Assembly: GCF_964204865.1 (NCBI RefSeq)
Contig: NC_135250.1
Coordinates: forward strand, 6,820,001 to 6,884,000
Source: Styela clava
Lineage: Eukaryota
DNA length: 64,000 nucleotides
Reading direction: 5' to 3'
The notes beneath the pieces are model-generated. The model was given only the letters and a program-made list of their open reading frames with translations, was not told the DNA's origin and did no database searches. Made by a program: the position numbers and the translations under genes. This document shows positions 37,251 through 61,883 of the stretch, piece after piece. The first letter of the stretch is position 1; the number at the start of each line of letters is the position of its first letter.

Positions 37251-38274
37251 TTTAAATGTTATGTGTTCTGCACTCCTTAGCATCGCATAGCTTGCCTTTT
37301 CGTATGTCAGTCACGAGTAAGACAAATATATTACCTTAGGAAATTATAGGATTAAACAATTGTATTGGGATTTACTATAAAACTGATTCACGCTGATGAC
37401 TACCTTGCAAAAGAAATTGACTACCAGTGGAATGAATTGTCTGTTCTGTATTTGCTGTTTTATTTTTACACCCCTTTCCTCGATGATGGCCGCTGCGTGA
37501 ACGTTACATCGATTACATATAATAGGTTGGATTGCGTGCATGTGGATTTGAGTTCAACAAAGTTGGCGTTGGATACAAGGAGAGATATAAATCATAATTT
37601 ATCTACATTATTGGTGAAAGAGGTAAATAAGCGAGAACCCCAATTTTCTAAAATTCTACTCAGTCTCAATATAAGCTTGTCATCGAAAAATCTCCTCAAA
37701 AATTCTTATTTTGACAAAAAGTAGTTCAGTGAGAAGAAGCATTTTACAATACCATACATACAGTATAGCAAAAAATTGTGTATGCACAGTATTCTAATGA
37801 ATATTTATTCAAAAACCAAAAATATTGATGCCGATTAGTCGATAGATTAATGGTAATAAATTGACGATTATTTGATTAACGCTTTAGGATCATGCGAACC
37901 GTGATTTGATAACTTCTGTTGCATCGGAAATTGTTTGTTCATATAGATATATAGAATATACCAGAGTAACTGGATGAATAATTCTACATTTATATTTAGC
38001 AACAAAATATTCCGCCACCATTTGATCATCTTGCACATCTCGTCAACTCCGTACAATAGGAGACGTTGCTCGTTCAGCTGTAGGATAAAACAAGGGAAGG
38101 CGTTTTAATATCATATTCAGATAAATATATTTATTTAATATAAATGAAATTCATGATGTCTTTATCGAAACATAACTTAATTTGGCGTTTTTTTTTATAA
38201 AAAATAATGAACATTTATTGACCTTTTGTAATATTTTCGTACTTACAACCTGCAGAAAAGCGTGGGACGATTGA

Positions 38275-40245
38275 CTAACTCATGTTGCTGTAGTTGTCAC
38301 CAGCTTTCAACAAACCTGATGTCGCCTGCACGTTACACAAGACATCTTGAAAAGCGTTGGAATACTTGATGGCTTCGTTTGAAGGGGCGTAAAACATGAA
38401 TGCGGGTTGTCCTCCAGGTATCGTCATGTTAGCTGACAGGGAAGAACCTGTAACGAGCTCATCTTGGAAATGTTGAGTGCCCTTAATATAAGAATTCAAA
38501 TTATTGCACAACGGTATTGTAGTAATTCGTCATATTTTTGTATGTATAGTATATTTTATAAACTTTTCAGATCAAAACTTCGAAAAACAACATACCTAAC
38601 ACTTAACAGGTATAAACTGTCGGGTTTGATTCATGTACAGTTAACATAATGCATGGAAAGAATAAATACGATGGTCAGGATATTCTATTTTGCCTATCAA
38701 ATATATAACATTACATTCACTCTCTGTATCGATTTTGCATATATAAAAATATTGAATGGATGATATTAATATAAACATCTGAAAATACCCTATCCGTGAA
38801 CCAGCGATCGTCATGTGAGGTCAAGGCTAGGTATCCAAGCAACGCAGTTGATGACGTTATCACAACTTCAGCGAGAACAAAAATGCTCATGATAGTTCCA
38901 ATAACTATTCCCATAGATTTGTTCTTTTCATCATAATAATCAACCTAAAATGTGCGAAACTTTTAGAAATTACCAAATGGTTTTCATTTGTCATTTTGCC
39001 TGAAGTTTTGTTCAAATATTCAAGACATTTGATTTGCTATGTTCGAAGCCAATAAGTGACACGGTTTTTAATCATTCCGTCTTATTATACAGCAATATCC
39101 AGATATTATTTATTACTTGAATGGAGCAACATGAAGTGCACGGATGGACACGGTACTCGGATCCAACAATTGCATATGAAAAGTATTACCTCTTGTGCGA
39201 TAGACATTGTGATTACGGCCATCAGCGATATCGCCATTAAAACAGCAAGCGCTGAACATCCAAATGATATAGCAGCCTAAAAAGTTTAAAAAGACGTACT
39301 AAATTAAAAGTGCCGGAGGAATGAATTATCAGAAATTAAATATTTTCCAAATACAAACCACAAATCTGTCTTTTCGTTTGTAAGCAATAATAACGCCGAA
39401 ACCGCTTAGCAATATCTGAAACAAAAGTACAAAAGAAAATACCAATTTAATGTCAATTTACTATTGTCAATACCCACAAAATAATTCTCTAAGTTTAAGT
39501 TGTTTCCACACCTGAGGTATTGGCTAAAACTTTGATAACGTTATAAGCGAGCTTGTGTTCTTGCGCTCAGTATTTTTTTTTATGAAATCCATAGTGCTGT
39601 ACAAAGCATAATATATACTCACCAGAAGTGAAATCCAAACAGGAACACCGGGTGCACCAAGGAAAGATGGCGATGGAGAAGTCAATTCTTTAAATTGGCA
39701 GAAGATTGCAAGTAAATCAAGTATAATCAACATCACCCCTAAAAAAATCATTTAAACCATATCGCTTATGTCGTCTGCACATCTAGTTTAATTAGCGAGA
39801 CTAACTACAGTATATGGGTAGAATATTTCATGCCGTATTTTAACAGGTGGGAGGGACTGAGAGAATAATTGTTGTTAAAGAAAGGGTTCAAAAACGCGTG
39901 ACAAATCAAATGCAAGTCAACAGTTCTGACGATTGAATTTGGTTTTTGCCCTGAAGTCACTAGGAATTCACTGACTCTGTGACAATATGCTCTAAAAATC
40001 AAACCCGCGGTCCATATGACAACCTAATTGCGCCAAAATATTTTGTAAATATGGACATAAAAATAATTATTCCTGATAGATTAGAACTACCTACCGCACC
40101 CGGCCTGCGCTATTCCAAACGTCAAAATCTTAGGGCTCTGATTAAATTGCACTGTATCCCCTGGTCGCATAACACGAAGATACCATATCTGAAAACTTGT
40201 ACAATATGTGTCGCAACATCCAGGATCCACTGATATTTCCGACAT
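38275..40245 (-). CDS. MS4A: MS4A/CD20-like four-TM protein, copy 1 (full-length, 257 aa)
   Basis: Exons 40095-40245, 39623-39738, 39359-39415, 39190-39276, 38789-38944, 38275-38481 in phase. Family-like motifs FGIAQAGCG (TM1), GVPVWISLLILLSG (TM2), hydrophobic TM3, FVLAEVVIT (TM4); 68-aa last exon. Confidence 0.82.
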
Positions 40246-40398
40246 TTTTAGTCCAAGTTAGTAATCTGATCTTCAGTTGTTTGTAAATTGTGGAATGTCG
40301 ATATCGGCGAATAGTAATCACAAATTGTTCAGAAAAACAAAAACAAAAAACCTCTAAATTGCTTTTAAAAATCAAATTGAAGCTATATTTTCATTTAT

Positions 40399-40419
40399 GA
40401 AATAGAAACGCTGACGTCA
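40399..40419. promoter_or_regulatory. Adjacent IRF-like (GAAATAGAAAC) and perfect CRE (TGACGTCA) motifs ~160 bp upstream of the MS4A ATG
   Basis: Direct motif match; also present at 51602-51622 and 63912-63932. Confidence 0.4.
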
Positions 40420-41288
40420 CTTACGGAGACAATCACACAGAACATTATTGTTGTACAGAATGGGGTACTTGAAAATCAAAAGCAGTGTTTTCATTCCACG
40501 TAGAACCTCAGAAATTAGGTTTTCTTCATAAGATAGTATCGTAATCTACATGTACGTCAATGGTGCTCAATTCAATGTAAGTTATGTTTCGTAGAAATGT
40601 TTCATTCTTACGATAGAACTGAAAGCACTTCAGGTAACTTTCAGGTGTCTTCAAGTGTCCATAATAAACGTAAGTAGAATATTTCACACATAAATAATAT
40701 TGGTGTAATTGAACGAGTAATAATCACGATTACTCACATATGGAGGTATTAGAAAATGAAGTGTTTATTTCCAGTATAATTATTAAAAATCTACATATTG
40801 TAAAAAGAGCATGTTTTTTTGCTTCGCCATAAGTATGCATAAAAATGCCGCTTTTATTAATAGATTTAGCTTATCGCTTTCCTGAAAATCAATATTTGTC
40901 CATTTATCAATTCAAAAAAATAATAGTTTAGGACAAAACAAGACAGGGAGGCTCAAATTAATAGACACAGAGGTCAAATGACTAGTATCAAAGTGACTAA
41001 CTTCGGATAAACTGACCCTATTTTCAACGATATTTCCACAATTTATTGTTAAAATACGACAGAATATCCATCCGTATGTAAAGTGCGATGATGCAGAATC
41101 TAATCGCCTGGGTTACGCAATCGCCTGATGTCCCTGAGCTACAGCAAAAGTCTGGTCATCTACTTTTTCAATATCCTCAACATTGTATAACATCAAATTA
41201 CATATATATATATATTAGATATAATATCCAGTTAATATGTAAATACAAGTAAATACAATTGGTTAACAAATATTTAGACATCAGCAGT

Positions 41289-43591
41289 TTAGTAAGCGAT
41301 TGTTTCTGGCATGCTGAATTTATGACAACCGGATAAGTACAGGGGAAATGCGCTCCAGCCACCACCGATAGTAACAAGCTTGTTGTGAACTCGTAGAATG
41401 TCTTCTGCAGCGGGATGTGGATTACGACTGTAAACCCATGCATGCTTTGGACCTAAAAAGAGAGAATTGGAAAGCGTTTATAATGTTACATTGTCCATGT
41501 AGAATAATCGACATTAATAAAATCGATCGATTTAAAATGGCAAAGCTTCTCACTTCTTCAATCAAATCGATCATGAAGTTGTCAGTTTTGATTTCATCAA
41601 TGGCAAACGTGATTTTCACCATACTATTTTGAAAAGAGTACAATTTGATGAATGTTTCGAATTATAGGTCTATAAACATCTGTGTCAATGTTTATAGGAA
41701 ATGTTTTCGTGGTGTCAAAGGTCGGCAAAACATGCACTCTATCAACAGATGACAACGAACGATCAGGTTCGGTGATCGATTTTATAAAAGGTAATTGCGA
41801 ATCGAAATATCTTCCCAATAATGAAAATCCGACGTTTTTAAATAAATCTTCCACGCGACGCTTGAAGAACCTATTTAATAACATGATAATATACGGACAT
41901 TTGATTGAATTGCAGCTGAAAGTGTTCAGCTAAATTCAATACTGACCTTCTTCACCACACTGCAAGCACATGAAATAATGCTCATAATCTGTGAAGCAAC
42001 TCATCCGATGCTCATAAGCGTATCGAATCTCTGCATAACAAAAAAGTAGGTATATTTATTGATACGTTTCTTCATTAAGAGTCCAACATCTTGTTTTAAA
42101 ATAATATTTATCACCAAAGGCAGGGCAAATTAGGCATTTACGGACTAAGCAATGGGTGTATCTTCCCGGCTAATCCAAAAAATGGCACTTAAAAAAAGAT
42201 TAAAAAAATTTATCATTGTTATATTCATTTTGAGTTACATTTTGAATTTTTGTTATGATTGGCTCATTATATATATTTGCTACATAGTTGTTTTTGAAGT
42301 ACATCTGATTTGATAAATTTTTTATCTAGAATAATTTTTAGCAATGTGAATTATAGTGATAATAATAGTTATCATAAAATGAAAGGTATCATTAAAACAT
42401 TTTACCTTCCAAAACATGTTCATCTGCTCCGTTATGTTTTGCCCCATTCAACCACAATAATTCTATAAAAAATAATCATTTGTTATAAAAGTTTAAAATA
42501 CTTCAAATATAAATTTAATAAGTAGAACATTTTACGTGCCAAAACGTGTGTCGTATCTTGTGATTGAAGTTCCATTTTGATACCAACGGAATGGTATGAC
42601 TTCGTTGATTGACATTGTACCTCTGCATAGAAAAATCATGTTAATCGTAAGCCCTTACACAAAAAGCTGAAACTTTCATTTGTAACTTCCTTTATTTCAG
42701 TCGTGAAACATTTATTTATAAAAAATATAACGTATACCGCTCCCGTTATTGGTTTATCGGATACCCGGTGGATCAATTCCCTGCGTCTGCAGAATTCGTT
42801 CTACTATTATTTGTTACACCAGTTTGTCGGATGTTACAACTTTTATAAATCTCAAACTCAGAAAATATCGGACATATTTCTTCTGAGAAAAATGATAGAT
42901 TTATAGTCCTGATTAGGGTACAAACATAACTCAATCCGTAAAAAACTCAATACTAACCGGGCGAAAACGTTAAAAGCAATAATACGTCGGTATGTTTCAT
43001 TTTGATCTTAAAGTCAAGCCATTTCACCTATCTCTATCGTCCGAATCTATTCGCTATTGTCAGTTGTTAACACCAGTTAACATACTTATTTAACTTTCAT
43101 AATTCCGAAGACCTATTGGGCAGTCCATACCAAAACAGATTAGTAACCTTTTTACAATAAATTATTTATGTATATAAAATTATTTACTTTTCCGCTGATG
43201 AAATATCCTGAAATTCTCCAAAAATTCCGTCGAGAGTTTCTTTGAAATACTTGAACGCATAACACGGCACACCGCGTTCAAGTGGATCATTGGTGTTCAG
43301 TATGTGATACCAAGAATCAGGAAGCTGGAATATGGTGATACAAGATTTTTACAAAAGAAGCTGGAAAATTGAATGATACAGCTGGTGGCGCAATCAAACC
43401 CTTTCAGTCGTCACGTAATTTTCGTTCAACTCAATTCAATAATTTTTATGAATGCTCACCATATTATAATTGACTTCATCAAAAACGGGCAACGCGCAAT
43501 TTTCGTTTTCACGACGGTATCCTGGTTTTCCAACTGTCGGATTGAACAACAAGCAAACTATCAAAATGGAGACACAGCTTAAGAAGATCAT
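41289..43591 (-). CDS. Secreted lipocalin (ApoD-like), copy 1
   Basis: Exons 43460-43591 (signal peptide MIFLSCVSILIVCLLFNPTVG..CALPVF), 43188-43324 (LPDSWYHI, SCR1-like), ~42536-42622, 42406-42462, 41947-42030 (FTDYEHYFMCLQC, SCR2), 41289-41452 (HAWVYSRNP, SCR3; terminal Cys). Splicing between 43188 and 42462 is not fully resolved. Confidence 0.72.
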
Positions 43592-45981
43592 TGTTACTCG
43601 TTAGACTGTCTTCAGCGAAATGATGAAATATGCTCAGATAAAGCAATATTAAATCGGGAATGTAGGCAAAAGGAAGTACTTCTCCACGTTTTTCTCACCT
43701 GCTGCTTAGCATGCAATGCACTACGCACGTTTCCACTGCATGTTCAGCCTATGCAATATCAAATTGCAGACGTTATGAGATTCTCTGTATGTCAATAAAT
43801 CATTCTTTTCAATTCAGGCAAAGATAAGTCAAGATAGAACAAGGAGAGATGCTCAAGGATATGGACTCAAACCATCCTAAAATACTTGCACACAAATCAC
43901 TACCTTCAAAGTGCCTAACTTCGTATGAAGGACTTAATTTCAAGGTAGCGTCACCATCTTAAATCCGTTTTAAATTTACCGAATGATATATTTATTTGCT
44001 CGCATTTTATTTAAGAAATGTCGCTTTTTACCCGTGGTTAAAATGCATTCGAAATAACTCCCATTGGCGACATAATGCAATGATATTGATTGATGTTTTC
44101 TAAAATGTCATTCACATCATGGTATTTGTCTGCTTAACCTAAAACGCTAGAAACTCTCACAAATGAGGCTTGTGGACTCGTTGTCGCATGCATATTAGTG
44201 CAACCGACCACCGACTAAGTCAATAAAAATAGATTGGACAAGCGTGGCATACCAAGTGGTGGCGCAACGTACGCAAAACCAGCCCAACAACAACAATTTG
44301 GAGAAAATCGAGTTTCACCGGAAGATCCGCACGTAAAGTGATGCAGAATCCGGTATCTACCTCGGCCGCACTATTGCTGTCGCCTAAAAAATCTTCACGA
44401 AAGTCGAAGTATGGCCGGCTGCTTAATCTACGATTAACCGTATGAGTCAAACTGATACACACTTCAGACATGGTCCCAACCCAACAACTTGTGTTTTTTG
44501 CTAATGAAAACTTGTGTTTTTTGCTTTTAACAAGATTTATGAAAAGATATTGTTCCGGCTTTGTTCAAATTCATCACGATTATTGCGTTAATTTTCGATT
44601 CTCTTAACATTGTATAACATTAATTACCAGTGGCGGCGCGTCAATAGGGCCAACCGGGGAAATGCCCCGGTTGTTTTTTCGATATAATAAAAAATATTTG
44701 AAAAATACCTCAATATCGGTTGCACCAATGACATTAAACAACATGATGCGCAACTCCGGCATTTTTGGCCGAAGATCGTATTCGATAACACGCTCCAATG
44801 CACATACTTTACGAGACGAGAACGAGCGGATGTGTGCTGTTTTCAAGGCATGGCACGAATGGTGTTCGTGCCTGCTTTGACAGTTGTTGTCGACTTTAAT
44901 GATATTTTGGAAAGTTGAGTTAAAAAAAAATCGGAAAAAGGTAAGGTAAATACTATTGTTGTATATCACACCCGGGCATCGCACTGTTAGGTGCATGTGG
45001 GAAAGCCAGCTTTTTCAAATACTACAAAGTTATTAATTCAGTACGGTACGTAGTTGCCCATTTGCCGAAATTGCATATTTACTTACCCCTTATGGTTTCA
45101 AATAGTTCATGTACCTCCATTTAGATTTTTCTAACCAATGGGGATATTTACGTATTGCTGTAACATACTATTGCTCAATCACTTTTATTTGCGTATTGAT
45201 TCAAAGGGTTAACAAGTTCACCTAACATTTCACCCATTCCGGTCTATATTGTATAGTATGATCTCTCAAGTATATGAAGCCACGAATGCCTGTAATTTTT
45301 GGACTAAACCCCTTCATTAGTTGGTTTATATACCAAATTCAGTAAAACATTTTTTACACTTAACATGAGATATTGGATTTATTAACTTTTCCATTTTAAA
45401 TCATATAGACTGCTTTAAATATTCTTGACGAAAATTAATAAATCTCCTCTCTTTCTTCAGATGTGAATGTTGTGGACAAATCTGTATAAGCATTGTGAGA
45501 TTCCTGTAGCACAAGAGGCAATAGCAAAAATAGTAAGAATATCAATCAAGAAATTAAGTCGACATAGAGCAAAACTTTCAACTATTCGTCTAACCTCAAT
45601 TTCCCATTATTTATTCACAAGACAACTGTAGCAGACGGGGAGATATCAGAAGTATGGCGAAATATAAGTGACAGTGTGATTGCAAGAAATACAATTAGAG
45701 TACTCCATGAGTGTTTGCAATAGAAGAACAACCTATGGAGGCATGCAAAGACATTTGACCCTCCGGTAGAGTTGTGTATGGGTTTTATTTGTAAAAAGGC
45801 ACAAAACACGCCAGACATACTGAAAACAGCTTTGGAAATGTAGATTATGGGTCACTCACTACACCATGTTAGAATTGGTTCCATAAAATTTTGGTAGTAC
45901 TATAGAAGAAATTCAGGGAAGGGTATAATCATGATTCATGATAAAATACTGTTCAATAATTTGGACAACTTCAATATAGAC

Positions 45982-47150
45982 CAGGGATGTCAAACTCGCG
46001 GCCCCAGAGAACTTCCAGTGCGGCCCTCGAACGCTAAACAATAATTGTAATAGATTTTTGAAAGTGTTTTTTTTTTCTAAATGTAAAAGATTTTTCCAAT
46101 TTTTTGAAGTGAAATTGATTATTCACGCAAAAAACAATTTACTGAAAGTAGTTTTGGAAAATTATTATTTTTTTGTTCACATTTTGACCCAATTAAGAAT
46201 TTACAAATTAAGCTAGCAAAAGAATACTTGAATAAAACATTTGAGTGGATAAATTAAACGCAAAGTACATAAAGAAGGTGGCATTTTCGAAGAAAAATGG
46301 GAGTTACAATATTTCTGCATTTCTCAAAATTCTGAAGCACATTGTTTTTGTTTTGTCATATTTCCATCAGTACAATGAAATAACACAATAAACTCAGCAG
46401 TCAATATGACAAATTCAAAGACCAACTTCGAACAGAAAATTTCCATGCGTTTGTATATTAATATAATTATACAACGACTTAGTTTACTAAAAATCAATAT
46501 CACCAATAATTCAATGCCACGCAATGTGGCGCAAAATTTCTTGTCAAAAAATTCTGTCATTTGTTTGTTTACTGATCTATACGCTTTCTTGCATTACTGG
46601 AATTAATTAAACATTCTCGCAGATCCATATTAACCCATGATCATGTGACCTCGTTAGTTACTATAAGAGTCGGTACTATAAAATCATTTCAGCCTGGCCT
46701 TAGTATGCTGGTGACACAAAAAAGTTGTCAAACGTCAGGACAAATGTAATTGAGTAAACATTGAGTTTATACTACAGTATTTTGGTTAATTTTAGGTCCA
46801 TATATTTAGATTAAGTCATTCTTAGTGTATGTATCATTCTTTTCCTATCCAAAGCTTGTTCAAAAATGATTTTGATGGTTGTTCATAGAATTTTATGATT
46901 TTTTTGTAATAAATACAGTAACTTGCAATAATAGTGGAATGCAAATATTAATATTTAATTGCATTTGAAATTAGAGAAAATAATAGAACTTAATCCAACT
47001 GTTTAATTGCATCACAATATATGTCACAAACTAAAACTATCTTAAAAATATCTTTTAAGTATACATTATCAAAAACTGTTTGCGGCCCTTTTTACAATTT
47101 CCGAAATGCGATGCGGCATATGGTATGACTTGTATTTGCTGTCACGATGT
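45982..47150. mobile_element. Nested, decayed Charlie-type hAT element
   Basis: Left end cagggatgtcaaactcgcggcccc..gcggccctcg; degenerate right end tgcggccc..gatgcggc near 47080-47150; no clear TSD. Confidence 0.45.
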
Positions 47151-47389
47151 ATTATCTCAATGTGTCAAACTTTTAATTAGTGTGCATATTTTGCTTCCAG
47201 GTAACATGAACGTATTGTCTTGTTTATTACCTCAGCTTGGAGTATTGACAAGAAAAAGGTGCCAGTAAATTACTTAAAAATTTTTTCAACTCTTTGTTAT
47301 AATCTGAATTCACAATTAATGGGAAATATAAACAGCCAACAATCAATGAGAACTATATGCAAAATTCCTCAGATTAAATTTGTCTTCTA

Positions 47390-47900
47390 AAATCGGAGGA
47401 AGGCAAAACATATAGGTAGTTTCCATTCATACAAGTCTTTCAAGAAGACTTGCTCGAGCCAAACTAAATGAGCATCATCAGGTGATCGGTAAGGCTGCAA
47501 GTTGAATTCAGCCCTGCAACCTCCTGCATAGACGATAATATTAATTAGTGGGCTATGAGCTAAATTCCTAAATTTAGACACAAACATATCTACGAGGCAT
47601 TATGTACCATCAATGTTAACTACGATAAAATGAATATGTAATATGTCTAATAAACTCACCTACTAAAGCAAATTCGATGGGTGCAAACTTTGTGTTATGG
47701 AATTGTATCACAGCACCGTTAAGAGGAGTATAAACAGTCTTGCTGTTTTGTAAGAAACCCTCTTTAAATAAAATTTCAATGTTCAAGTACAAACATTAAA
47801 ACTAGTAACCTTGAACATTGTCATTATCTGCAAAATGTTCCACACAAATCTTTACACTATCGCGTCTGTAATCTTCTCTGATAATATAAAAACGTCTATG
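47390..47900 (-). pseudogene. P-element/THAP-type transposase relic, spliced fragments
   Basis: Exon-like pieces: ..RDSVKICVEHFADND (THAP CxxHF, ~47810-47880), ..TPLNGAVI (AVP-box-like, ~47660-47762) and NLQPYRSPDDAHLVWLEQVFLKDLYEW (ORF 47387-47587), resembling P-like transposase C-terminal segments. Confidence 0.55.
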
Positions 47901-49603
47901 ATGTCCAGAATTACTCTGCTTAGCTTGTCTGCCATTCCAGCTTTCCAAGTGAGCAAAACTTCTTAGATTTAATGATTATTTTCTTTCGTCACAGGCGCAA
48001 AAAGGCAGATACTACACGTAAAGAAGTCGCCGAGTAGCAAAAGCGAATGGGAAACGGTCTCGAAAGGCGACGATAACTATGTGCATTGAAGCGTATCATG
48101 AAATACAATCTTTCGCGTGTAGTCTTATGGAGTGACGTCAGAGTTGCCCATCATGTTGTTAAATGTCATTGGTTGCACAGACTGTCTACACTAGCCATAT
48201 TCTCCCGACACGGTTCATTTTTCGCTCGCAAAGCCTTCGCCGAACGTCGACGGGGCGACGCCGATTTTGCCCCGGTTGCTCATTGTATATCGTATTCTCT
48301 CTTTTATCTTCCACTCGCCGTGTTTGTCTCGTTTGTTTTCTGTTTCTTTTACTAAATCATCGGGGCCGATCGGGGCTAGCCCCGAAATTATGACGACACA
48401 ATGCCGACGTTTCTTACAACAACGTGTTGACATATTCACGCATTCCTTCTCGTTCGTTGGCTGCTTGAAGAGTTGATAGTTTCCTCGCCTTCGTTTTTGT
48501 CGCTTGTTTCGCTATTTGAATCAGTTAGAGACCTTTAGTCCATTTGCTTTCGATTTTCCACATTCCTTTTGAGTTCCTCACTTCTTTCCGGCGTTATTTC
48601 TGGGATGCATGACTTTAATCAGCGCGTTATTGAGAATTTTGCTTCCAAGAAACCGCGGCGTGTTGCATATATGTTCAAGCAGTAGAAGTCTAGCAGCATA
48701 TATATCTATGCGTGAGCGACGCATGTCCTTATCTTTGCATTAACTTTCCTTTCTTCATAGTAACGTTTTAAACCTTATTTTAGGTTTTGTCTGCTTTCCC
48801 GAAGTTTCTGTTAATATGTCATTGTATTTATCTGGGTAAATATTGCCTTTCCTTTTGAAAGAGGTTTCAAAATAAACTATGTCTATATTTATTAATCCCT
48901 TGACTTGGACCGGTTTTTATAGACACTTTCTTATCGTTAAAAATTGTCGCTTTTGCCGATTGGTTGTTACCGATGGAATGGTTTTATACTCATAAAATGA
49001 TGGGAGAACTTACAGCGCTCATCCTGTCCCCGTAGATGGGGATGACTTGGTCCCGCAGTAGCTTGCCCCGGTTGTCAAAATGACCACGCGCCGCCACTGT
49101 TAATTACATATATTGGAGATGATATTGTGAAATTGAACACAATGTGGAACGCACCTTGTGGCTACTGGGACAAATTGTATTATCGTACCATTTTGTTTCT
49201 TCTTCGTGTCCATATATTTGAGCATCGCTCTCCTATAATAATTGTTTGATAATCGTAAACGCCTTTCTCTTTAAGTTTTGTGTGATGACGTCATCAAAAT
49301 AAAAATTGCTTGACGTGGTTCCGTGATCAGATCTCGGTGATTTAATGGTCAGACTACTGTAAAAGTGTTTAAAGATTGAAATTTTCAATTCACGTTGAAA
49401 CTGAGTCAGGAAAAATGGATCATCGTTGCATGACCCGGAAAGCCACGACAGCCCCTTTACCGCTATGGCACCGCGATACAGGTACTTTTTTTCGAGATAT
49501 AAAATTTCATTCATATATAATTTCACCAAAGGAAAACTTGATTTTTACTAGTTGGAAAAGAGTACAATTTGGTGAATGTTTCCCGGAGGTTCGAGTTCTA
49601 TGT

Positions 49604-51448
49604 CTATGTGTAGGAAATAGGTATCGTCATGTTAGCTGACAGGGAAGAACCTATAACGAGCTCATCTTGGAAATGTTGAGTGCCCTTAATATAAGAATTC
49701 AAATTATTGCACAACGGTATTGTAGTAATTCGTCATAGTTTTGTATGTATAATATATTTTATAAACTTTTCAGATCAAAACTTCGAAAAACAACATACCT
49801 AACACTTAACAGGTATAAACTGTCGGGTTTGATTCATGTACAGTTAACATAATGCATGGAAAGAATAAATACGATGGTCAGGATATTCTATTTTGCCTAT
49901 CAAATATATAACATTACATTCACTCTCTGTATCGATTTTGCATATATAAAAATATTGAATGGATGATATTAATATAAACATCTGAAAATACCCTATCCGT
50001 GAACCAGCGATCGTCATGTGAGGTCAAGGCTAGGTATCCAAGCAACGCAGTTGATGACGTTATCACAACTTCAGCGAGAACAAAAATGCTCATGATAGTT
50101 CCAATAACTATTCCCATAGATTTGTTCTTTTCATCATAATAATCAACCTAAAATGTGCGAAACTTTTAGAAATTACCAAATGGTTTTCATTTGTCATTTT
50201 GCCTGAAGTTTTGTTCAAATATTCAAGACATTTGATTTGCTATGTTCGAAGCCAATAAGTGACACGGTTTTTAATCATTCCGTCTTATTATACAGCAATA
50301 TCCAGATATTATTTATTACTTGAATGGAGCAACATGAAGTGCACGGATGGACACGGTACTCGGATCCAACAATTGCATATGAAAAGTATTACCTCTTGTG
50401 CGATAGACATTGTGATTACGGCCATCAGCGATATCGCCATTAAAACAGCAAGCGCTGAACATCCAAATGATATAGCAGCCTAAAAAGTTTAAAAAGACGT
50501 ACTAAATTAAAAGTGCCGGAGGAATGAATTATCAGAAATTAAATATTTTCCAAATACAAACCACAAATCTGTCTTTTCGTTTGTAAGCAATAATAACGCC
50601 GAAACCGCTTAGCAATATCTGAAACAAAAGTACAAAAGAAAATACCAATTTAATGTCAATTTACTATTGTCAATACCCACAAAATAATTCTCTAAGTTTA
50701 AGTTGTTTCCACACCTGAGGTATTGGCTAAAACTTTGATAACGTTATAAGCGAGCTTGTGTTCTTGCGCTCAGTATTTTTTTTTATGAAATCCATAGTGC
50801 TGTACAAAGCATAATATATACTCACCAGAAGTGAAATCCAAACAGGAACACCGGGTGCACCAAGGAAAGATGGCGATGGAGAAGTCAATTCTTTAAATTG
50901 GCAGAAGATTGCAAGTAAATCAAGTATAATCAACATCACCCCTAAAAAAATCATTTAAACCATATCGCTTATGTCGTCTGCACATCTAGTTTAATTAGCG
51001 AGACTAACTACAGTATATGGGTAGAATATTTCATGCCGTATTTTAACAGGTGGGAGGGACTGAGAGAATAATTGTTGTTAAAGAAAGGGTTCAAAAACGC
51101 GTGACAAATCAAATGCAAGTCAACAGTTCTGACGATTGAATTTGGTTTTTGCCCTGAAGTCACTAGGAATTCACTGACTCTGTGACAATATGCTCTAAAA
51201 ATCAAACCCGCGGTCCATATGACAACCTAATTGCGCCAAAATATTTTGTAAATATGGACATAAAAATAATTATTCCTGATAGATTAGAACTACCTACCGC
51301 ACCCGGCCTGCGCTATTCCAAACGTCAAAATCTTAGGGCTCTGATTAAATTGCACTGTATCCCCTGGTCGCATAACACGAAGATACCATATCTGAAAACT
51401 TGTACAATATGTGTCGCAACATCCAGGATCCACTGATATTTCCGACAT
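49604..51448 (-). CDS. MS4A: MS4A-like copy 2, C-terminally truncated by the duplication junction (215 aa)
   Basis: Exons 51298-51448, 50826-50941, 50562-50618, 50393-50479, 49992-50147, 49604-49684; last exon reads GTQHFQDELVIGSSLSANMTIP-ISYT* across the junction. Confidence 0.75.
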
Positions 51449-52491
51449 TTTTAGTCCAAGTTAGTAATCTGATCTTCAGTTGTTTGTAAATTGTGGAATG
51501 TCGATATCGGCGAATAGTAATCACAAATTGTTCAGAAAAACAAAAACAAAAAACCTCTAAATTGCTTTTAAAAATCAAATTGAAGCTATATTTTCATTTA
51601 TGAAATAGAAACGCTGACGTCACTTACGGAGACAATCACACAGAACATTATTGTTGTACAGAATGGGGTACTTGAAAATCAAAAGCAGTGTTTTCATTCC
51701 ACGTAGAACCTCAGAAATTAGGTTTTCTTCATAAGATAGTATCGTAATCTACATGTACGTCAATGGTGCTCAATTCAATGTAAGTTATGTTTCGTAGAAA
51801 TGTTTCATTCTTACGATAGAACTGAAAGCACTTCAGGTAACTTTCAGGTGTCTTCAAGTGTCCATAATAAACGTAAGTAGAATATTTCACACATAAATAA
51901 TATTGGTGTAATTGAACGAGTAATAATCACGATTACTCACATATGGAGGTATTAGAAAATGAAGTGTTTATTTCCAGTATAATTATTAAAAATCTACATA
52001 TTGTAAAAAGAGCATGTTTTTTTGCTTCGCCATAAGTATGCATAAAAATGCCGCTTTTATTAATAGATTTAGCTTATCGCTTTCCTGAAAATCAATATTT
52101 GTCCATTTATCAATTCAAAAAAATACTAGTTTAGGACAAAACAAGACAGGGAGGCTCAAATTAATAGACACAGAGGTCAAATGACTAGTATCAAAGTGAC
52201 TAACTTCGGATAAACTGACCCTATTTTCAACGATATTTCCACAATTTATTGTTAAAATACGACAGAATATCCATCCGTATGTAAAGTGCGATGATGCAGA
52301 ATCTAATCGCCTGGGTTACGCAATCGCCTGATGTCCCTGAGCTACAGCAAAAGTCTGGTCATCTACTTTTTCAATATCCTCAACATTGTATAACATCAAA
52401 TTACATATATATATATATTAGATATAATATCCAGTTAATATGTAAATACAAGTAAATACAATTGGTTAACAAATATTTAGACATCAGCAGT

Positions 52492-54794
52492 TTAGTAAGC
52501 GATTGTTTCTGGCATGCTGAATTTATGACAACCGGATAAGTACAGGGGAAATGCGCTCCAGCCACCACCGATAGTAACAAGCTTGTTGTGAACTCGTAGA
52601 ATGTCTTCTGCAGCGGGATGTGGATTACGACTGTAAACCCATGCATGCTTTGGACCTAAAAAGAGAGAATTGGAAAGCGTTTATAATGTTACATTGTCCA
52701 TGTAGAATAATCGACATTAATAAAATCGATCGATTTAAAATGGCAAAGCTTCTCACTTCTTCAATCAAATCGATCATGAAGTTGTCAGTTTTGATTTCAT
52801 CAATGGCAAACGTGATTTTCACCATACTATTTTGAAAAGAGTACAATTTGATGAATGTTTCGAATTATAGGTCTATAAACATCTGTGTCAATGTTTATAG
52901 GAAATGTTTTCGTGGTGTCAAAGGTCGGCAAAACATGCACTCTATCAACAGATGACAACGAACGATCAGGTTCGGTGATCGATTTTATAAAAGGTAATTG
53001 CGAATCGAAATATCTTCCCAATAATGAAAATCCGACGTTTTTAAATAAATCTTCCACGCGACGCTTGAAGAACCTATTTAATAACATGATAATATACGGA
53101 CATTTGATTGAATTGCAGCTGAAAGTGTTCAGCTAAATTCAATACTGACCTTCTTCACCACACTGCAAGCACATGAAATAATGCTCATAATCTGTGAAGC
53201 AACTCATCCGATGCTCATAAGCGTATCGAATCTCTGCATAACAAAAAAGTAGGTATATTTATTGATACGTTTCTTCATTAAGAGTCCAACATCTTGTTTT
53301 AAAATAATATTTATCACCAAAGGCAGGGCAAATTAGGCATTTACGGACTAAGCAATGGGTGTATCTTCCCGGCTAATCCAAAAAATGGCACTTAAAAAAA
53401 GATTAAAAAAATTTATCATTGTTATATTCATTTTGAGTTACATTTTGAATTTTTGTTATGATTGGCTCATTATATATATTTGCTACATAGTTGTTTTTGA
53501 AGTACATCTGATTTGATAAATTTTTTATCTAGAATAATTTTTAGCAATGTGAATTATAGTGATAATAATAGTTATCATAAAATGAAAGGTATCATTAAAA
53601 CATTTTACCTTCCAAAACATGTTCATCTGCTCCGTTATGTTTTGCCCCATTCAACCACAATAATTCTATAAAAAATAATCATTTGTTATAAAAGTTTAAA
53701 ATACTTCAAATATAAATTTAATAAGTAGAACATTTTACGTGCCAAAACGTGTGTCGTATCTTGTGATTGAAGTTCCATTTTGATACCAACGGAATGGTAT
53801 GACTTCGTTGATTGACATTGTACCTCTGCATAGAAAAATCATGTTAATCGTAAGCCCTTACACAAAAAGCTGAAACTTTCATTTGTAACTTCCTTTATTT
53901 CAGTCGTGAAACATTTATTTATAAAAAATATAACGTATACCGCTCCCGTTATTGGTTTATCGGATACCCGGTGGATCAATTCCCTGCGTCTGCAGAATTC
54001 GTTCTACTATTATTTGTTACACCAGTTTGTCGGATGTTACAACTTTTATAAATCTCAAACTCAGAAAATATCGGACATATTTCTTCTGAGAAAAATGATA
54101 GATTTATAGTCCTGATTAGGGTACAAACATAACTCAATCCGTAAAAAACTCAATACTAACCGGGCGAAAACGTTAAAAGCAATAATACGTCGGTATGTTT
54201 CATTTTGATCTTAAAGTCAAGCCATTTCACCTATCTCTATCGTCCGAATCTATTCGCTATTGTCAGTTGTTAACACCAGTTAACATACTTATTTAACTTT
54301 CATAATTCCGAAGACCTATTGGGCAGTCCATACCAAAACAGATTAGTAACCTTTTTACAATAAATTATTTATGTATATAAAATTATTTACTTTTCCGCTG
54401 ATGAAATATCCTGAAATTCTCCAAAAATTCCGTCGAGAGTTTCTTTGAAATACTTGAACGCATAACACGGCACACCGCGTTCAAGTGGATCATTGGTGTT
54501 CAGTATGTGATACCAAGAATCAGGAAGCTGGAATATGGTGATACAAGATTTTTACAAAAGAAGCTGGAAAATTGAATGATACAGCTGGTGGCGCAATCAA
54601 ACCCTTTCAGTCGTCACGTAATTTTCGTTCAACTCAATTCAATAATTTTTATGAATGCTCACCATATTATAATTGACTTCATCAAAAACGGGCAACGCGC
54701 AATTTTCGTTTTCACGACGGTATCCTGGTTTTCCAACTGTCGGATTGAACAACAAGCAAACTATCAAAATGGAGACACAGCTTAAGAAGATCAT
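52492..54794 (-). CDS. Secreted lipocalin (ApoD-like), copy 2
   Basis: Apparently identical to 41289-43591 at offset 11203. Confidence 0.72.
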
Positions 54795-55683
54795 TGTTAC
54801 TCGTTAGACTGTCTTCAGCGAAATGATGAAATATGCTCAGATAAAGCAATATTAAATCGGGAATGTAGGCAAAAGGAAGTACTTCTCCACGTTTTTCTCA
54901 CCTGCTGCTTAGCATGCAATGCACTACGCACGTTTCCACTGCATGTTCAGCCTATGCAATATCAAATTGCAGACGTTATGAGATTCTCTGTATGTCAATA
55001 AATCATTCTTTTCAATTCAGGCAAAGATAAGTCAAGATAGAACAAGGAGAGATGCTCAAGGATATGGACTCAAACCATCCTAAAATACTTGCACACAAAT
55101 CACTACCTTCAAAGTGCCTAACTTCGTATGAAGGACTTAATTTCAAGGTAGCGTCACCATCTTAAATCCGTTTTAAATTTACCGAATGATATATTTATTT
55201 GCTCGCATTTTATTTAAGAAATGTCGCTTTTTACCCGTGGTTAAAATGCATTCGAAATAACTCCCATTGGCGACATAATGCAATGATATTGATTGATGTT
55301 TTCTAAAATGTCATTCACATCATGGTATTTGTCTGCTTAACCTAAAACGCTAGAAACTCTCACAAATGAGGCTTGTGGACTCGTTGTCGCATGCATATTA
55401 GTGCAACCGACCACCGACTAAGTCAATAAAAATAGATTGGACAAGCGTGGCATACCAAGTGGTGGCGCAACGTACGCAAAACCAGCCCAACAACAACAAT
55501 TTGGAGAAAATCGAGTTTCACCGGAAGATCCGCACGTAAAGTGATGCAGAATCCGGTATCTACCTCGGCCGCACTATTGCTGTCGCCTAAAAAATCTTCA
55601 CGAAAGTCGAAGTATGGCCGGCTGCTTAATCTACGATTAACCGTATGAGTCAAACTGATACACACTTCAGACATGGTCCCAAC

Positions 55684-56757
55684 TAGGCTTGCACGTAATT
55701 TACGGATTTACGGAATTACGGAATTATTTCGAGTTACGGAAGCGAAGTTACGAATTACGTAAAGTCGTAATCATTGGTCGAGCGCTTTCGCGATTGAAAC
55801 GAGCTCTCTTCAGAGCAGTCAATTCCCTTGATTGTAAAAAATTAAGTTTAATAAGTAGAAGAAGTTAGAGTTCCGGTATTAGCAGCCGTTTTTCTCTCTC
55901 TTGTTACGCAGGTGGGGAAGGCATAACGCGTTGCCATTTACTAACCTATTAACAACTTATCTAGCATGGCCAAAGTACATATTAACCGTAGATAGGGAAT
56001 AGAATTGTGTTGAGACCGATGGACGCCAACACACCTGGTTTCAACTTCTTCGGGTGAAATGACTAACGAATGTAAGAGATCAACTTATCAAACATGGTCT
56101 ATTTGTAAATGCCGTGATAATTAATGTCGCGCTTATCAAACAGCCATATGACGACGGAAGAGAAATTGCGTAATAAACCAACGCAACTTACTTAAGTAGT
56201 TTTTTCGGCATCGGTAAATCGATTGAGACGGCAGAGAAAACGAAACGACGGGATTTCCCGTGTTTATTCTGCGCGAGAACCATTTTCTATTACAAAGTCG
56301 GATATTGTAAAAAAAACGGTGAAATAACTAGTCTGATTATTAAATTATAAATCTGGAATTTTTATTTAATACGAAAGTCGTATTAATACGTTAATACGAT
56401 TTTAAAAAGTCAACTATCGTTTCATAAATATCCGTATACCAGTGTTGGTAATGATAAAATTGATCGCATGAAATTGGGTGATAAAGGAAAATCAAAACTA
56501 AAACAAAAGATAAAAATCAGAATAAAATTAATTTGAATTCACTCCTTGATATTTGTCTTCAACATATGTCGCCGGCGTGTAGTACTGCCGGGAATATGAA
56601 AACCAAACTTCGATGTCCCATTCGGAATAGAAGTGGATTCAATTGGTTGTTATGATAGGTTTGAATGTGTGAAAAAAATATGGCAATTACGGGGTCATTA
56701 CGTAATCGATTTGGCCGTAATTACGGAATTGATTTTTGTCAATTACGTGCAAGCCTA
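55684..56757. mobile_element. Young hAT MITE, 1,074 bp
   Basis: Perfect 17-bp TIR taggcttgcacgtaatt / aattacgtgcaagccta; perfect 8-bp TSD gtcccaac (55676-55683, 56758-56765); ttacg subterminal repeats; absent from unit 1. Confidence 0.96.
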
Positions 56758-56907
56758 GTCCCAACAACTTGTGTTTTTTGCTAATGAAAACTTGTGTTTT
56801 TTGCTTTTAACAAGATTTATGAAAAGATATTGTTCCGGCTTTGTTCAAATTCATCACGATTATTGCGTTAATTTTCGATTCTCTTAACATTGTATAACAT
56901 TAATTAC

Positions 56908-59900
56908 CAGTGGCGGCGCGTCAATAGGGCCAACCGGGGAAATGCCCCGGTTGTTTTTTCGATATAATAAAAAATATTTGAAAAATACCTCAATATCGGT
57001 TGCACCAATGACATTAAACAACATGATGCGCAACTCCGGCATTTTTGGCCGAAGATCGTATTCGATAACACGCTCCAATGCACATACTTTACGAGACGAG
57101 AACGAGCGGATGTGTGCTGTTTTCAAGGCATGGCACGAATGGTGTTCGTGCCTGCTTTGACAGTTGTTGTCGACTTTAATGATATTTTGGAAAGTTGAGT
57201 TAAAAAAAAATCGGAAAAAGGTAAGGTAAATACTATTGTTGTATATCACACCCGGGCATCGCACTGTTAGGTGCATGTGGGAAAGCCAGCTTTTTCAAAT
57301 ACTACAAAGTTATTAATTCAGTACGGTACGTAGTTGCCCATTTGCCGAAATTGCATATTTACTTACCCCTTATGGTTTCAAATAGTTCATGTACCTCCAT
57401 TTAGATTTTTCTAACCAATGGGGATATTTACGTATTGCTGTAACATACTATTGCTCAATCACTTTTATTTGCGTATTGATTCAAAGGGTTAACAAGTTCA
57501 CCTAACATTTCACCCATTCCGGTCTATATTGTATAGTATGATCTCTCAAGTATATGAAGCCACGAATGCCTGTAATTTTTGGACTAAACCCCTTCATTAG
57601 TTGGTTTATATACCAAATTCAGTAAAACATTTTTTACACTTAACATGAGATATTGGATTTATTAACTTTTCCATTTTAAATCATATAGACTGCTTTAAAT
57701 ATTCTTGACGAAAATTAATAAATCTCCTCTCTTTCTTCAGATGTGAATGTTGTGGACAAATCTGTATAAGCATTGTGAGATTCCTGTAGCACAAGAGGCA
57801 ATAGCAAAAATAGTAAGAATATCAATCAAGAAATTAAGTCGACATAGAGCAAAACTTTCAACTATTCGTCTAACCTCAATTTCCCATTATTTATTCACAA
57901 GACAACTGTAGCAGACGGGGAGATATCAGAAGTATGGCGAAATATAAGTGACAGTGTGATTGCAAGAAATACAATTAGAGTACTCCATGAGTGTTTGCAA
58001 TAGAAGAACAACCTATGGAGGCATGCAAAGACATTTGACCCTCCGGTAGAGTTGTGTATGGGTTTTATTTGTAAAAAGGCACAAAACACGCCAGACATAC
58101 TGAAAACAGCTTTGGAAATGTAGATTATGGGTCACTCACTACACCATGTTAGAATTGGTTCCATAAAATTTTGGTAGTATAATAGAAGAAATTCAGGGAA
58201 GGGTATAATCATGATTCATGATAAAATACTGTTCAATAATTTGGACAACTTCAATATAGACCAGGGATGTCAAACTCGCGGCCCCAGAGAACTTCCAGTG
58301 CGGCCCTCGAACGCTAAACAATAATTGTAATAGATTTTTAAAAGTGTTTTTTTTTTCTAAATGTAAAAGATTTTTCCAATTTTTTGAAGTGAAATTGATT
58401 ATTCACGCAAAAAACAATTTACTGAAAGTAGTTTTGGAAAATTATTATTTTTTTGTTCACATTTTGACCCAATTAAGAATTTACAAATTAAGCTAGCAAA
58501 AGAATACTTGAATAAAACATTTGAGTGGATAAATTAAACGCAAAGTACATAAAGAAGGTGGCATTTTCGAAGAAAAATGGGAGTTACAATATTTCTGCAT
58601 TTCTCAAAATTCTGAAGCACATTGTTTTTGTTTTGTCATATTTCCATCAGTACAATGAAATAACACAATAAACTCAGCAGTCAATATGACAAATTCAAAG
58701 ACCAACTTCGAACAGAAAATTTCCATGCGTTTGTATATTAATATAATTATACAACGACTTAGTTTACTAAAAATCAATATCACCAATAATTCAATGCCAC
58801 GCAATGTGGCGCAAAATTTCTTGTCAAAAAATTCTGTCATTTGTTTGTTTACTGATCTATACGCTTTCTTGCATTACTGGAATTAATTAAACATTCTCGC
58901 AGATCCATATTAACCCATGATCATGTGACCTCGTTAGTTACTATAAGAGTCGGTACTATAAAATCATTTCAGCCTGGCCTTAGTATGCTGGTGACACAAA
59001 AAAGTTGTCAAACGTCAGGACAAATGTAATTGAGTAAACATTGAGTTTATACTACAGTATTTTGGTTAATTTTAGGTCCATATATTTAGATTAAGTCATT
59101 CTTAGTGTATGTATCATTCTTTTCCTATCCAAAGCTTGTTCAAAAATGATTTTGATGGTTGTTCATAGAATTTTATGATTTTTTTGTAATAAATACAGTA
59201 ACTTGCAATAATAGTGGAATGCAAATATTAATATTTAATTGCATTTGAAATTAGAGAAAATAATAGAACTTAATCCAACTGTTTAATTGCATCACAATAT
59301 ATGTCACAAACTAAAACTATCTTAAAAATATCTTTTAAGTATACATTATCAAAAACTGTTTGCGGCCCTTTTTACAATTTCCGAAATGCGATGCGGCATA
59401 TGGTATGACTTGTATTTGCTGTCACGATGTATTATCTCAATGTGTCAAACTTTTAATTAGTGTGCATATTTTGCTTCCAGGTAACATGAACGTATTGTCT
59501 TGTTTATTACCTCAGCTTGGAGTATTGACAAGAAAAAGGTGCCAGTAAATTACTTAAAAATTTTTTCAACTCTTTGTTATAATCTGAATTCACAATTAAT
59601 GGGAAATATAAACAGCCAACAATCAATGAGAACTATATGCAAAATTCCTCAGATTAAATTTGTCTTCTAAAATCGGAGGAAAGCAAAACATATAGGTAGT
59701 TTCCATTCATACAAGTCTTTCAAGAAGACTTGCTCGAGCCAAACTAAATGAGCATCATCAGGTGATCGGTAAGGCTGCAAGTTGAATTCAGCCCTGCAAC
59801 CTCCTGCATAGACGATAATATTAATTAGTGGGCTATGAGCTAAATTCCTAAATTTAGACACAAACATATCTACGAGGCATTATGTACCATCAATGTTAAC

Positions 59901-61379
59901 TACGATAAAATGAATATGTAATATGTCTAATAAACTCACCTACTAAAGCAAATTCGATGGGTGCAAACTTTGTGTTATGGAATTGTATCACAGCACCGTT
60001 AAGAGGAGTATAAACAGTCTTGCTGTTTTGTAAGAAACCCTCTTTAAATAAAATTTCAATGTTCAAGTACAAACATTAAAACTAGTAACCTTGAACATTG
60101 TCATTATCTGCAAAATGTTCCACACAAATCTTTACACTATCGCGTCTGTAATCTTCTCTGATAATATAAAAACGTCTATGATGTCCAGAATTACTCTGCT
60201 TAGCTTGTCTGCCATTCCAGCTTTCCAAGTGAGCAAAACTTCTTAGATTTAATGATTATTTTCTTTCGTCACAGGCGCAAAAAGGCAGATACTACACGTA
60301 AAGAAGTCGCCGAGTAGCAAAAGCGAATGGGAAACGGTCTCGAAAGGCGACGATAACTATGTGCATTGAAGCGTATCATGAAATACAATCTTTCGCGTGT
60401 AGTCTTATGGAGTGACGTCAGAGTTGCCCATCATGTTGTTAAATGTCATTGGTTGCACAGACTGTCTACACTAGCCATATTCTCCCGACACGGTTCATTT
60501 TTCGCTCGCAAAGCCTTCGCCGAACGTCGACGGGGCGACGCCGATTTTGCCCCGGTTGCTCATTGTATATCGTATTCTCTCTTTTATCTTCCACTCGCCG
60601 TGTTTGTCTCGTTTGTTTTCTGTTTCTTTTACTAAATCATCGGGGCCGATCGGGGCTAGCCCCGAAATTATGACGACACAATGCCGACGTTTCTTACAAC
60701 AACGTGTTGACATATTCACGCATTCCTTCTCGTTCGTTGGCTGCTTGAAGAGTTGATAGTTTCCTCGCCTTCGTTTTTGTCGCTTGTTTCGCTATTTGAA
60801 TCAGTTAGAGACCTTTAGTCCATTTGCTTTCGATTTTCCACATTCCTTTTGAGTTCCTCACTTCTTTCCGGCGTTATTTCTGGGATGCATGACTTTAATC
60901 AGCGCGTTATTGAGAATTTTGCTTCCAAGAAACCGCGGCGTGTTGCATATATGTTCAAGCAGTAGAAGTCTAGCAGCATATATATCTATGCGTGAGCGAC
61001 GCATGTCCTTATCTTTGCATTAACTTTCCTTTCTTCATAGTAACGTTTTAAACCTTATTTTAGGTTTTGTCTGCTTTCCCGAAGTTTCTGTTAATATGTC
61101 ATTGTATTTATCTGGGTAAATATTGCCTTTCCTTTTGAAAGAGGTTTCAAAATAAACTATGTCTATATTTATTAATCCCTTGACTTGGACCGGTTTTTAT
61201 AGACACTTTCTTATCGTTAAAAATTGTCGCTTTTGCCGATTGGTTGTTACCGATGGAATGGTTTTATACTCATAAAATGATGGGAGAACTTACAGCGCTC
61301 ATCCTGTCCCCGTAGATGGGGATGACTTGGTCCCGCAGTAGCTTGCCCCGGTTGTCAAAATGACCACGCGCCGCCACTG
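56908..61379. mobile_element. Non-autonomous hAT (Tip100-like) element, copy 2
   Basis: Same TIRs and ttaattac TSD as 44628-49099, so it was copied by the segmental duplication rather than by transposition. Confidence 0.92.
59670..60180 (-). pseudogene. P-element/THAP transposase relic, copy 2
   Basis: Duplicate of 47390-47900 at offset 12280. Confidence 0.55.
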
Positions 61380-61883
61380 TTAATTACATATATTGGAGAT
61401 GATATTGTGAAATTGAACACAATGTGGAACGCACCTTGTGGCTACTGGGACAAATTGTATTATCGTACCATTTTGTTTCTTCTTCGTGTCCATATATTTG
61501 AGCATCGCTCTCCTATAATAATTGTTTGATAATCGTAAACGCCTTTCTCTTTAAGTTTTGTGTGATGACGTCATCAAAATAAAAATTGCTTGACGTGGTT
61601 CCGTGATCAGATCTCGGTGATTTAATGGTCAGACTACTGTAAAAGTGTTTAAAGATTGAAATTTTCAATTCACGTTGAAACTGAGTCAGGAAAAATGGAT
61701 CATCGTTGCATGACCCGGAAAGCCACGACAGCCCCTTTACCGCTATGGCACCGCGATACAGGTACTTTTTTTCGAGATATAAAATTTCATTCATATATAA
61801 TTTCACCAAAGGAAAACTTGATTTTTACTAGTTGGAAAAGAGTACAATTTGGTGAATGTTTCCCGGAGGTTCGAGTTCTATGT

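What the first reader, a model, noticed from the sequence alone, without database searches (positions are those of the whole stretch)
49604..49684. Breakpoint creates tail-truncated MS4A paralogues
Copies 2 and 3 keep the promoter and all four TM exons, but the last 46 residues of copy 1 (GGQPAFMFYAP..IKYSNAF..DNYSNMS, three tyrosines) are replaced by ISYT*. MS4A proteins oligomerise and some signal through C-terminal tyrosines, so one full-length plus amplified tail-less copies could form a signalling/decoy pair.
Basis: partly seen in the sequence, partly recalled or inferred. Interest (0 to 1): 0.7.

Follow-up and report, generated by a model that had tools for sequence, protein, structure and literature searches.

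The report
Young cut-off copies of CD20-like gene
A sea-squirt CD20-like membrane gene lies in three back-to-back copies, and two of them are cut inside exon 6 and lose a tail motif kept in other sea squirts; they are likely young by-products of a duplication, not a signalling-and-decoy pair.

Summary
The breakpoint is real. A minus-strand CD20/MS4A-like gene of Styela clava lies in three tandem units. Copies 2 and 3 keep exons 1-5 and end ISYT* (215 aa), because a non-homologous junction joins exon 6 to a decayed neighbouring gene.

One correction: an RNA contig and the NCBI protein show that copy 1 splices to a seventh exon. Its tail is 44 aa with two tyrosines, not 46 with three. Neither tyrosine lies in an ITAM, ITIM or YxxΦ motif. 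The lost block is, however, conserved in two other ascidian orders.

Copy 2 is a very recent unequal-crossover hybrid. Copy 3 differs from copy 1 by 1.71%, matching the species' published heterozygosity (1.72%), so the duplication may be young. An older copy on another contig has decayed. Full-length transcripts were seen; junction transcripts were not (2 shallow RNA runs laid, one covering exon 6).

Most likely these are ordinary young 3'-truncated partial duplicates. A selected decoy role stays possible (about 12%) and untested.

The parts
38043..40245 (-). Copy 1, intact CD20/MS4A-like gene, 7 coding exons (40245-40095, 39738-39623, 39415-39359, 39276-39190, 38944-38789, 38481-38316, 38077-38043), 255 aa (P0002)
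38078..38315 (-).
   Evidence: joint in RNA contig of X6
38347..38415 (-). Residues 212-234, the ascidian-conserved tail block with Y220 and Y229; absent from copies 2 and 3
38416..49618 (.). Tandem unit A (11,203 bp)
49619..61898 (.). Tandem unit B (12,280 bp): unit-C type for its first 134-181 bp, unit-A type after
61899..64000 (.). Start of tandem unit C (continues about 5.7 kb past the window; 1.71% from unit A)
49604..51448 (-). Copy 2, 3'-truncated gene, 6 coding exons, 215 aa ending ISYT* (P0001)
49604..49684 (-). Hybrid exon 6 of copy 2: 66 nt of MS4A exon 6 plus 15 nt recruited across the junction at 49619/49618
61884..63758 (-). Copy 3, 3'-truncated gene; same protein as copy 2; junction at 61899/61898
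49519..49618 (-). 3' side of the junction: end of the last exon of a decayed paralogue of the neighbouring multi-copy gene X
49753..49800 (.). Interval of the inferred unequal crossover that made unit B (after the last B=C site, before the first A=B difference)
41627..44462 (-). Gene X in unit A: unidentified multi-exon gene of a tandem family (11 units in about 70 kb), carried in each unit; boundaries approximate
55684..56757 (.). 1,074-bp non-autonomous DNA transposon with terminal inverted repeats and 8-bp target duplication; present in B, excision-type footprint in A, empty site in C
44726..48171 (.). 3,446-bp insertion with terminal inverted repeats and 7-bp target duplication, in A and B, absent from C

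Best explanation
Copies 2 and 3 are 3'-truncated partial duplicates of a CD20/MS4A-like gene, likely young and likely unselected passengers of a tandem duplication at the edge of an unstable gene array.

Step 1 (junction shown, mechanism inferred): a non-homologous join with 1 nt of microhomology fused exon 6 to the last exon of a decayed gene-X paralogue. It probably joined two alleles, giving intact copy 1 plus truncated copy 3.

Step 2 (mosaic shown, crossover inferred): an unequal crossover 134-181 bp from the junction made copy 2.

Step 3 (inferred): the copies keep the upstream DNA, so they would be transcribed with copy 1. They would end at a cryptic poly(A) signal, or be degraded if a downstream donor is used first.

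Step 4 (inferred): any protein made would be a four-helix membrane protein without the conserved tail block, probably a docking or sorting element. It would be inert or mildly interfering, and its likely fate is decay, as with the older duplicate on contig C18.
For: Junction and microhomology. Unit B mosaic: 128 A=B, 3 B=C and 1 A=C sites, with the three B=C sites first (P = 2.7e-6). A and B differ at 5 sites in 11,022 bp beyond that (0.045%). A vs C differ at 131 of 7,662 aligned sites (1.71%), against 1.72% k-mer heterozygosity for the species (PMC7540406, one passage). The divergence is patchy, from 1 to 21 substitutions per full 500-bp bin. The unit boundary cuts this gene but carries gene X, and it borders an array of 11 X-family units. 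The C18 duplicate lacks exons 1, 6 and 7 and has a stop in exon 5. Orthologues in two other orders keep long tails. Partial duplicates are common among young duplicates (21-76% across the studies cited in PMC3449122, passages).
Against: Coding divergence between copies 1 and 3 is constrained: 1 non-synonymous change in about 485 sites and 3 synonymous in about 148 (Fisher P = 0.04), against 42 in 1,189 intron sites. If the duplication is old, this means selection on the truncated protein: 8.6 non-synonymous changes expected at the intron rate (P = 0.002), or 4.1 at the unit-wide rate (P = 0.08). The truncated form was amplified a second time. Run X5, from another study, holds both A-type and C-type pieces and a record with 3 differences where the 3 junction-linked sites lie, so the haplotype may not be private; its independence is unknown. 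All human 3'-truncated duplicates examined in PMC6169893 were transcribed, and some are functional (passages).
Confidence: 0.68

Rival explanations
1. Selected decoy or dominant-negative pair. The tail-less copies would be co-expressed, would co-assemble with the full-length protein or its partner through the membrane helices, and would dilute a conserved tail motif that is not an ITAM.
For: The cut falls one residue before the conserved block. All membrane exons are open in both copies, with 1 non-synonymous to 3 synonymous changes. The truncated form was amplified twice. CD20 forms homo-oligomers (PMC3711070, abstract start). A truncated FcεRIβ competes with the full-length form (PMC8776166, passages).
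Against: No tyrosine signalling motif in the tail. No junction contig in X6, the one RNA run of two laid that covers exon 6; its depth was 6.3 and contigs drop rare forms. The coding constraint is equally explained by allelic divergence that predates the junction. The earlier duplicate decayed.
Confidence: 0.12
2. The units were kept for extra copies of gene X, and the truncated MS4A copies hitch-hike.
For: Each unit carries gene X. The family has 11 units in about 70 kb here, and X also travelled with the C18 duplicate.
Against: Gene X is unidentified: no Pfam match for 8 candidate exons and no homologue for its last exon. Many paralogues carry stops, and X in unit C has a 63-bp deletion at the end of its last exon.
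Confidence: 0.12
3. Assembly artefact: alleles of one locus laid in tandem, copy 2 in particular being a false duplication.
For: A-C divergence equals heterozygosity. A and B are 99.9% identical. No junction-spanning read was seen: X10 gave only 13 reads.
Against: The junction is non-homologous and occurs twice. Its 3' side differs from unit C's own end at 3 sites, where other paralogues mostly share the junction's base. The transposon site shows three states: empty in C, filled in B, excision-type footprint in A. The A/C switch in B lies in a stretch of under 50 bp, too short for a long-read overlap (inference). X5 holds both types.
Confidence: 0.08

Closest known systems
3'-truncated partial gene duplicates 'with recruitment' (PMC3449122, passages; PMC6169893, passages; examples SRGAP2C, ARHGAP11B)
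   Same: Duplicate keeps the ancestral 5' end, loses downstream exons and gains a short new C-terminus from flanking DNA.
   Different: SRGAP2C and ARHGAP11B are described as fixed and functional. Here fixation, transcription and function are not shown, and the copies look young.
FcεRIβT, truncated splice form of MS4A2 (PMC8776166, passages)
   Same: A truncated MS4A-family chain lacking the signalling tail beside a full-length chain; it competes with the full-length form.
   Different: It arises by intron retention from one gene, also loses helices 3-4, and the tail lost holds an ITAM. Here it is a genomic duplication, all four helices stay, and the tail has no ITAM.
CHRFAM7A (PMC6169893 passages; PMC10999709 abstract start)
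   Same: Partial duplicate of a membrane-protein gene fused to other duplicated DNA; reported as a negative regulator of the parent receptor.
   Different: It is 5'-truncated, with a demonstrated effect. Here the truncation is 3' and no effect has been tested.
Ascidian MS4A genes (bioRxiv 10.1101/2022.08.15.492342, passages) and the CD20-like Pfam family PF04103
   Same: CD20 domain and four-helix fold; lineage-specific duplication is typical (29 genes in Ciona robusta).
   Different: That paper found the termini too variable to align. This gene has a tail block conserved across three ascidian orders and no close paralogue in its genome besides these copies and the C18 relic. It may be a separate conserved orthogroup; vertebrate MS4A orthology was not tested.

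Membership tests
CD20-like / MS4A superfamily | Pfam PF04103 above the curated cut-off | tested here: met
   33.7 and 33.3 bits vs 27.9, residues 43-147
CD20-like / MS4A superfamily | Four membrane helices with an FcεRIβ/CD20-like fold | tested here: met
   Model helices 38-66, 82-103, 106-144, 148-180, mean pLDDT 62.7; Foldseek ranks 1-3 are IgE-receptor chains (best E 4.3e-4) and rank 4 is CD20; only sequence hits in PDB are FcεRIβ, at a non-significant E 0.3
MS4A proper (vertebrate clade) | Orthology to vertebrate MS4A rather than TMEM176, TMEM196 or MLC1-like branches | not tested
   No tree built; Atlas neighbours include CD20, MLC1 and TMEM196 clusters; PMC2826416 treats invertebrate sequences as only possibly related (passage)
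Tyrosine-signalling MS4A (FcεRIβ type) | ITAM or YxxL/I motif in the C-terminal tail | tested here: not met
   None in P0001-P0004; no ITIM, YxxΦ or PPxY either
3'-truncated partial duplicate with recruitment | Keeps 5' exons and upstream DNA, loses 3' exons, new terminus from non-homologous flank | tested here: met
Functional decoy paralogue (SRGAP2C / CHRFAM7A type) | Truncated copy is transcribed | tested here: inconclusive
   No loose end at the junction and no junction-linked base in X6; X7 does not cover exon 6; depth 2-6
Functional decoy paralogue (SRGAP2C / CHRFAM7A type) | Fixed in the species and under purifying selection since truncation | tested here: inconclusive
   Coding constraint present but confounded with allelic divergence; X10 too shallow; X5 of unknown independence
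Functional decoy paralogue (SRGAP2C / CHRFAM7A type) | Binds and inhibits the full-length product or its partner | not testable with these tools
   Needs co-expression and binding assays

The most novel reading that the evidence does not exclude
A newborn dominant-negative paralogue: a duplication breakpoint removed exactly a tail motif conserved across three ascidian orders, left the membrane core intact, and was amplified again, giving a copy-number-tuned inhibitor of a conserved CD20-like protein whose tail motif is of an undescribed, non-ITAM kind.
Probability: 0.12. Interest if true: 0.6.

Novelty: new member of a known kind. Interest (0 to 1): 0.25.

Why it matters
As a passenger duplicate it is ordinary: a clear small case of gene birth and death, with a non-homologous join, an unequal crossover and a transposon excision readable in 30 kb. 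Its practical value is that it is a natural deletion of a conserved cytoplasmic motif in an unstudied ascidian CD20-like protein. If the decoy reading held, it would be an invertebrate SRGAP2C-like case caught while young. No paper was found for this locus: 'Styela clava' + 'MS4A' gave 0 papers and 'Styela clava' + 'copy number' + 'structural variation' gave 0, within the library searched.

Tried and rejected
Rejected:
- The 46-aa, three-tyrosine tail; it is intron read-through.
- My first reading frame for exon 1 was wrong and was corrected.
- My first idea that the transposon entered unit B after the duplication; unit A carries an excision-type footprint.
- Junction-associated mutagenesis as the source of the 3 differences just past the junction; other paralogues mostly share the junction's bases.

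No verdict:
- Complex prediction of P0002 with P0001: score 0.00 twice, alignments not used, no controls folded. This is evidence neither way.
- Run search: no holder on record as RNA was listed; 14 runs listed, 8 guessed to be RNA.
- Only 4 of the 14 runs were laid, and only on 37600-40300. The junction sequence itself was never the reference, so junction reads could show only as loose ends. X10 gave 13 reads.
- X6 and X7 each show one unlisted difference in pieces holding exactly one copy-1/copy-3 site. The letters were not printed, so this shows neither expression of copy 3 nor copy-3-like alleles.

Led nowhere:
- Gene X stayed unidentified: Pfam 0 of 8 candidate exons, homologue search none, Atlas unavailable.
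- Word-index searches found only the gene itself.
- Atlas structure hits were all under TM 0.5 by query.
- Earlier scan notes: none near this place, one loosely similar case in another genome.
- No supplements were read.

Full report
Setting. The window is G000:C1:6820001-6884000 of a 377-Mb genome. NCBI names the proteins encoded here as Styela clava. Self-alignment shows tandem units A 38416-49618, B 49619-61898 and C from 61899; C ends about 5.7 kb past the window. A genome search with the gene finds these three copies and one 85%-identical relic on contig C18.

The observation. Each unit boundary cuts exon 6 of a minus-strand gene after codon P211. Copies 2 and 3 have open exons 1-5 with GT-AG introns, and read ISYT* after the junction, 215 aa. 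NCBI holds this protein under two accessions (P0001); a gene model is not proof of expression. The one contig of run X6 (696 nt, depth 6.3, RNA by guess but spliced at five introns) joins 38316 to 38077. That is a 238-nt GT-AG intron, and P0002 (255 aa) has the same seventh exon. The lost tail is 44 aa with Y220 and Y229; the third tyrosine is intronic.

The protein. Pfam CD20 passes its cut-off. The model has four membrane helices with a low-confidence tail, and its best structural matches are IgE-receptor chains, then CD20. A search of 1.84 billion representatives gave 7 hits: the protein itself, Clavelina P0003, Phallusia P0004 and four unnamed fragments. The three species belong to three ascidian orders. 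Residues 212-234 are 13 of 23 and 16 of 23 identical to these orthologues. For comparison, the membrane region is 49 of 143 and 24 of 51, the linker before the cut 6 of 17 and 2 of 19, and residues 235-255 are 1 of 18 and 4 of 21. So the cut removes a conserved block and keeps the conserved stretch next to helix 4 (10 of 12, 12 of 12). No ITAM, ITIM, YxxΦ or PPxY pattern occurs in the 4 tails scanned (motif definitions recalled). The model puts Y229 in a helix (226-249) at pLDDT under 50. I infer a docking or sorting element rather than phosphotyrosine signalling.

The junction. Its 3' side is the end of the last exon of a decayed, frameshifted paralogue of the neighbouring gene X. The shared sequence at the join is 1 nt once the ancestral base is taken from paralogues. 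X is an unidentified multi-exon family with 11 units in about 70 kb here. After the new stop lie ATTAAA at 49346 and AATAAA at 48893, and a candidate donor at 49154 (scored with recalled weights). Ending at 49346 would give a stable mRNA; splicing from 49154 would likely trigger decay (inference). Skipping from exon 5 of copy 2 to exon 6 of copy 1 would keep the frame but was not tested.

History. Of 132 variable three-way sites, 128 are A=B, 3 are B=C and 1 is A=C, and the three B=C sites are the ones next to the junction (P = 2.7e-6). Unit B is therefore a C/A hybrid, as an unequal crossover at 49753-49800 would give. Beyond that, A and B differ at 5 of 11,022 bp. A 1,074-bp transposon (103 matches in a capped genome search) is absent in C, present in B and left an excision-type footprint in A; a 3,446-bp element is in A and B only. 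A and C differ at 131 of 7,662 sites (1.71%), patchily. The published heterozygosity is 1.72% (PMC7540406, one passage).

Selection. Copies 1 and 3 differ at 4 of 633 coding bases (3 synonymous, plus T200I) against 42 of 1,189 intron bases. This is the best argument for the decoy idea: had copy 3 drifted for the whole divergence, 8.6 replacements would be expected at the intron rate (P = 0.002) or 4.1 at the unit-wide rate (P = 0.08). But the same pattern follows if both were working alleles until a recent join, and my data cannot separate the two. The C18 relic lacks exons 1, 6 and 7 and has a stop in exon 5, so an earlier duplicate decayed. A weak hint of polymorphism: P0002 is held by NCBI, UniRef and nr under what I recall is an older accession series, while P0001 is held by NCBI alone.

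Reads. I laid 4 of 14 listed runs on 37600-40300 only. X6 shows the full-length form with the copy-1 base at 38450 and no loose end at 38416. X7 (3 contigs) does not cover exon 6. X10 gave 13 reads. For X5, 8 of 16 records were printed; of the 7 inside the unit, 3 match the count of C-type sites exactly and 4 show no difference from A, one of them judged by an indel. One X5 record has 3 differences where the junction-linked sites lie, but it stops 7 bp short of the junction. Contigs show presence, not absence, so transcription of copies 2 and 3 is open.

Comparison. This works like a 3'-truncated partial duplicate with recruitment, a common class (PMC3449122 and PMC6169893, passages). FcεRIβT and CHRFAM7A show that truncated chains can compete (PMC8776166, passages; PMC10999709, abstract start). 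CD20 forms homo-oligomers (PMC3711070, abstract start). Ascidian MS4A genes duplicate often (10.1101/2022.08.15.492342, passages). PMC2826416 (passages) is cautious about invertebrate membership. Searches for this locus found nothing.

Verdict. The breakpoint and the truncation are real, the tail is corrected, and tyrosine signalling is unsupported. Young passenger duplicates 0.68, selected decoy 0.12, hitch-hiking with gene X 0.12, artefact 0.08. Interest 0.25.

Noticed in passing
window 41627-44462 (-) and G000:C1 up to about 6931000 (L001-L005); also L006: Unidentified multi-exon gene family X in a tandem array, 11 units in about 70 kb, both orientations, many with stops. No Pfam match or homologue found. 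Its last exons loosely recall SAM-dependent methyltransferases (recalled, untested).
   Followed up: partly
window 44473-44485, 55684-56757; unit C past the window: One transposon site in three states: empty (C), filled with an 8-bp target duplication (B), and a 5-bp footprint (A). This points to recent excision; copies 98% identical lie on contigs C6 and C8.
   Followed up: yes
window 44726-48171 and its copy in unit B: 3,446-bp insertion with 18-bp terminal inverted repeats (one mismatch) and a 7-bp target duplication, absent from unit C; family not identified.
   Followed up: partly
G000:C18:8927000-8934400 (L006-L007): Older dispersed duplicate carrying gene X and MS4A exons 2-5, with a stop in exon 5 and an insertion of about 1.2 kb between exons 2 and 3.
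   Followed up: partly
G000 contigs C14, C18, C16, C5, C13: 24 CD20-family matches elsewhere, 19 of them in open frames of 228-404 aa without stops, clustered on C14 and C18: an apparently intron-poor MS4A-like expansion distinct from this seven-exon gene.
   Followed up: no
P0002 residues 9-32 and 178-192: A cysteine-rich N-terminal motif is shared with P0003, P0006 and P0008, and a juxtamembrane motif after helix 4 is nearly invariant in P0003 and P0004; function unknown.
   Followed up: partly
window 311-1184: 31-bp minisatellite, about 28 copies, 81% matches.
   Followed up: no
window 21677-22477 (-): 266-aa Ser/Glu-rich open frame containing a 30-bp coding repeat of 4.5 copies at 21879-22013; likely an exon of another gene.
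   Followed up: no
window 41617-41680 versus unit C: Gene X in unit C has a 63-bp deletion that removes the end of its last exon and the stop.
   Followed up: no
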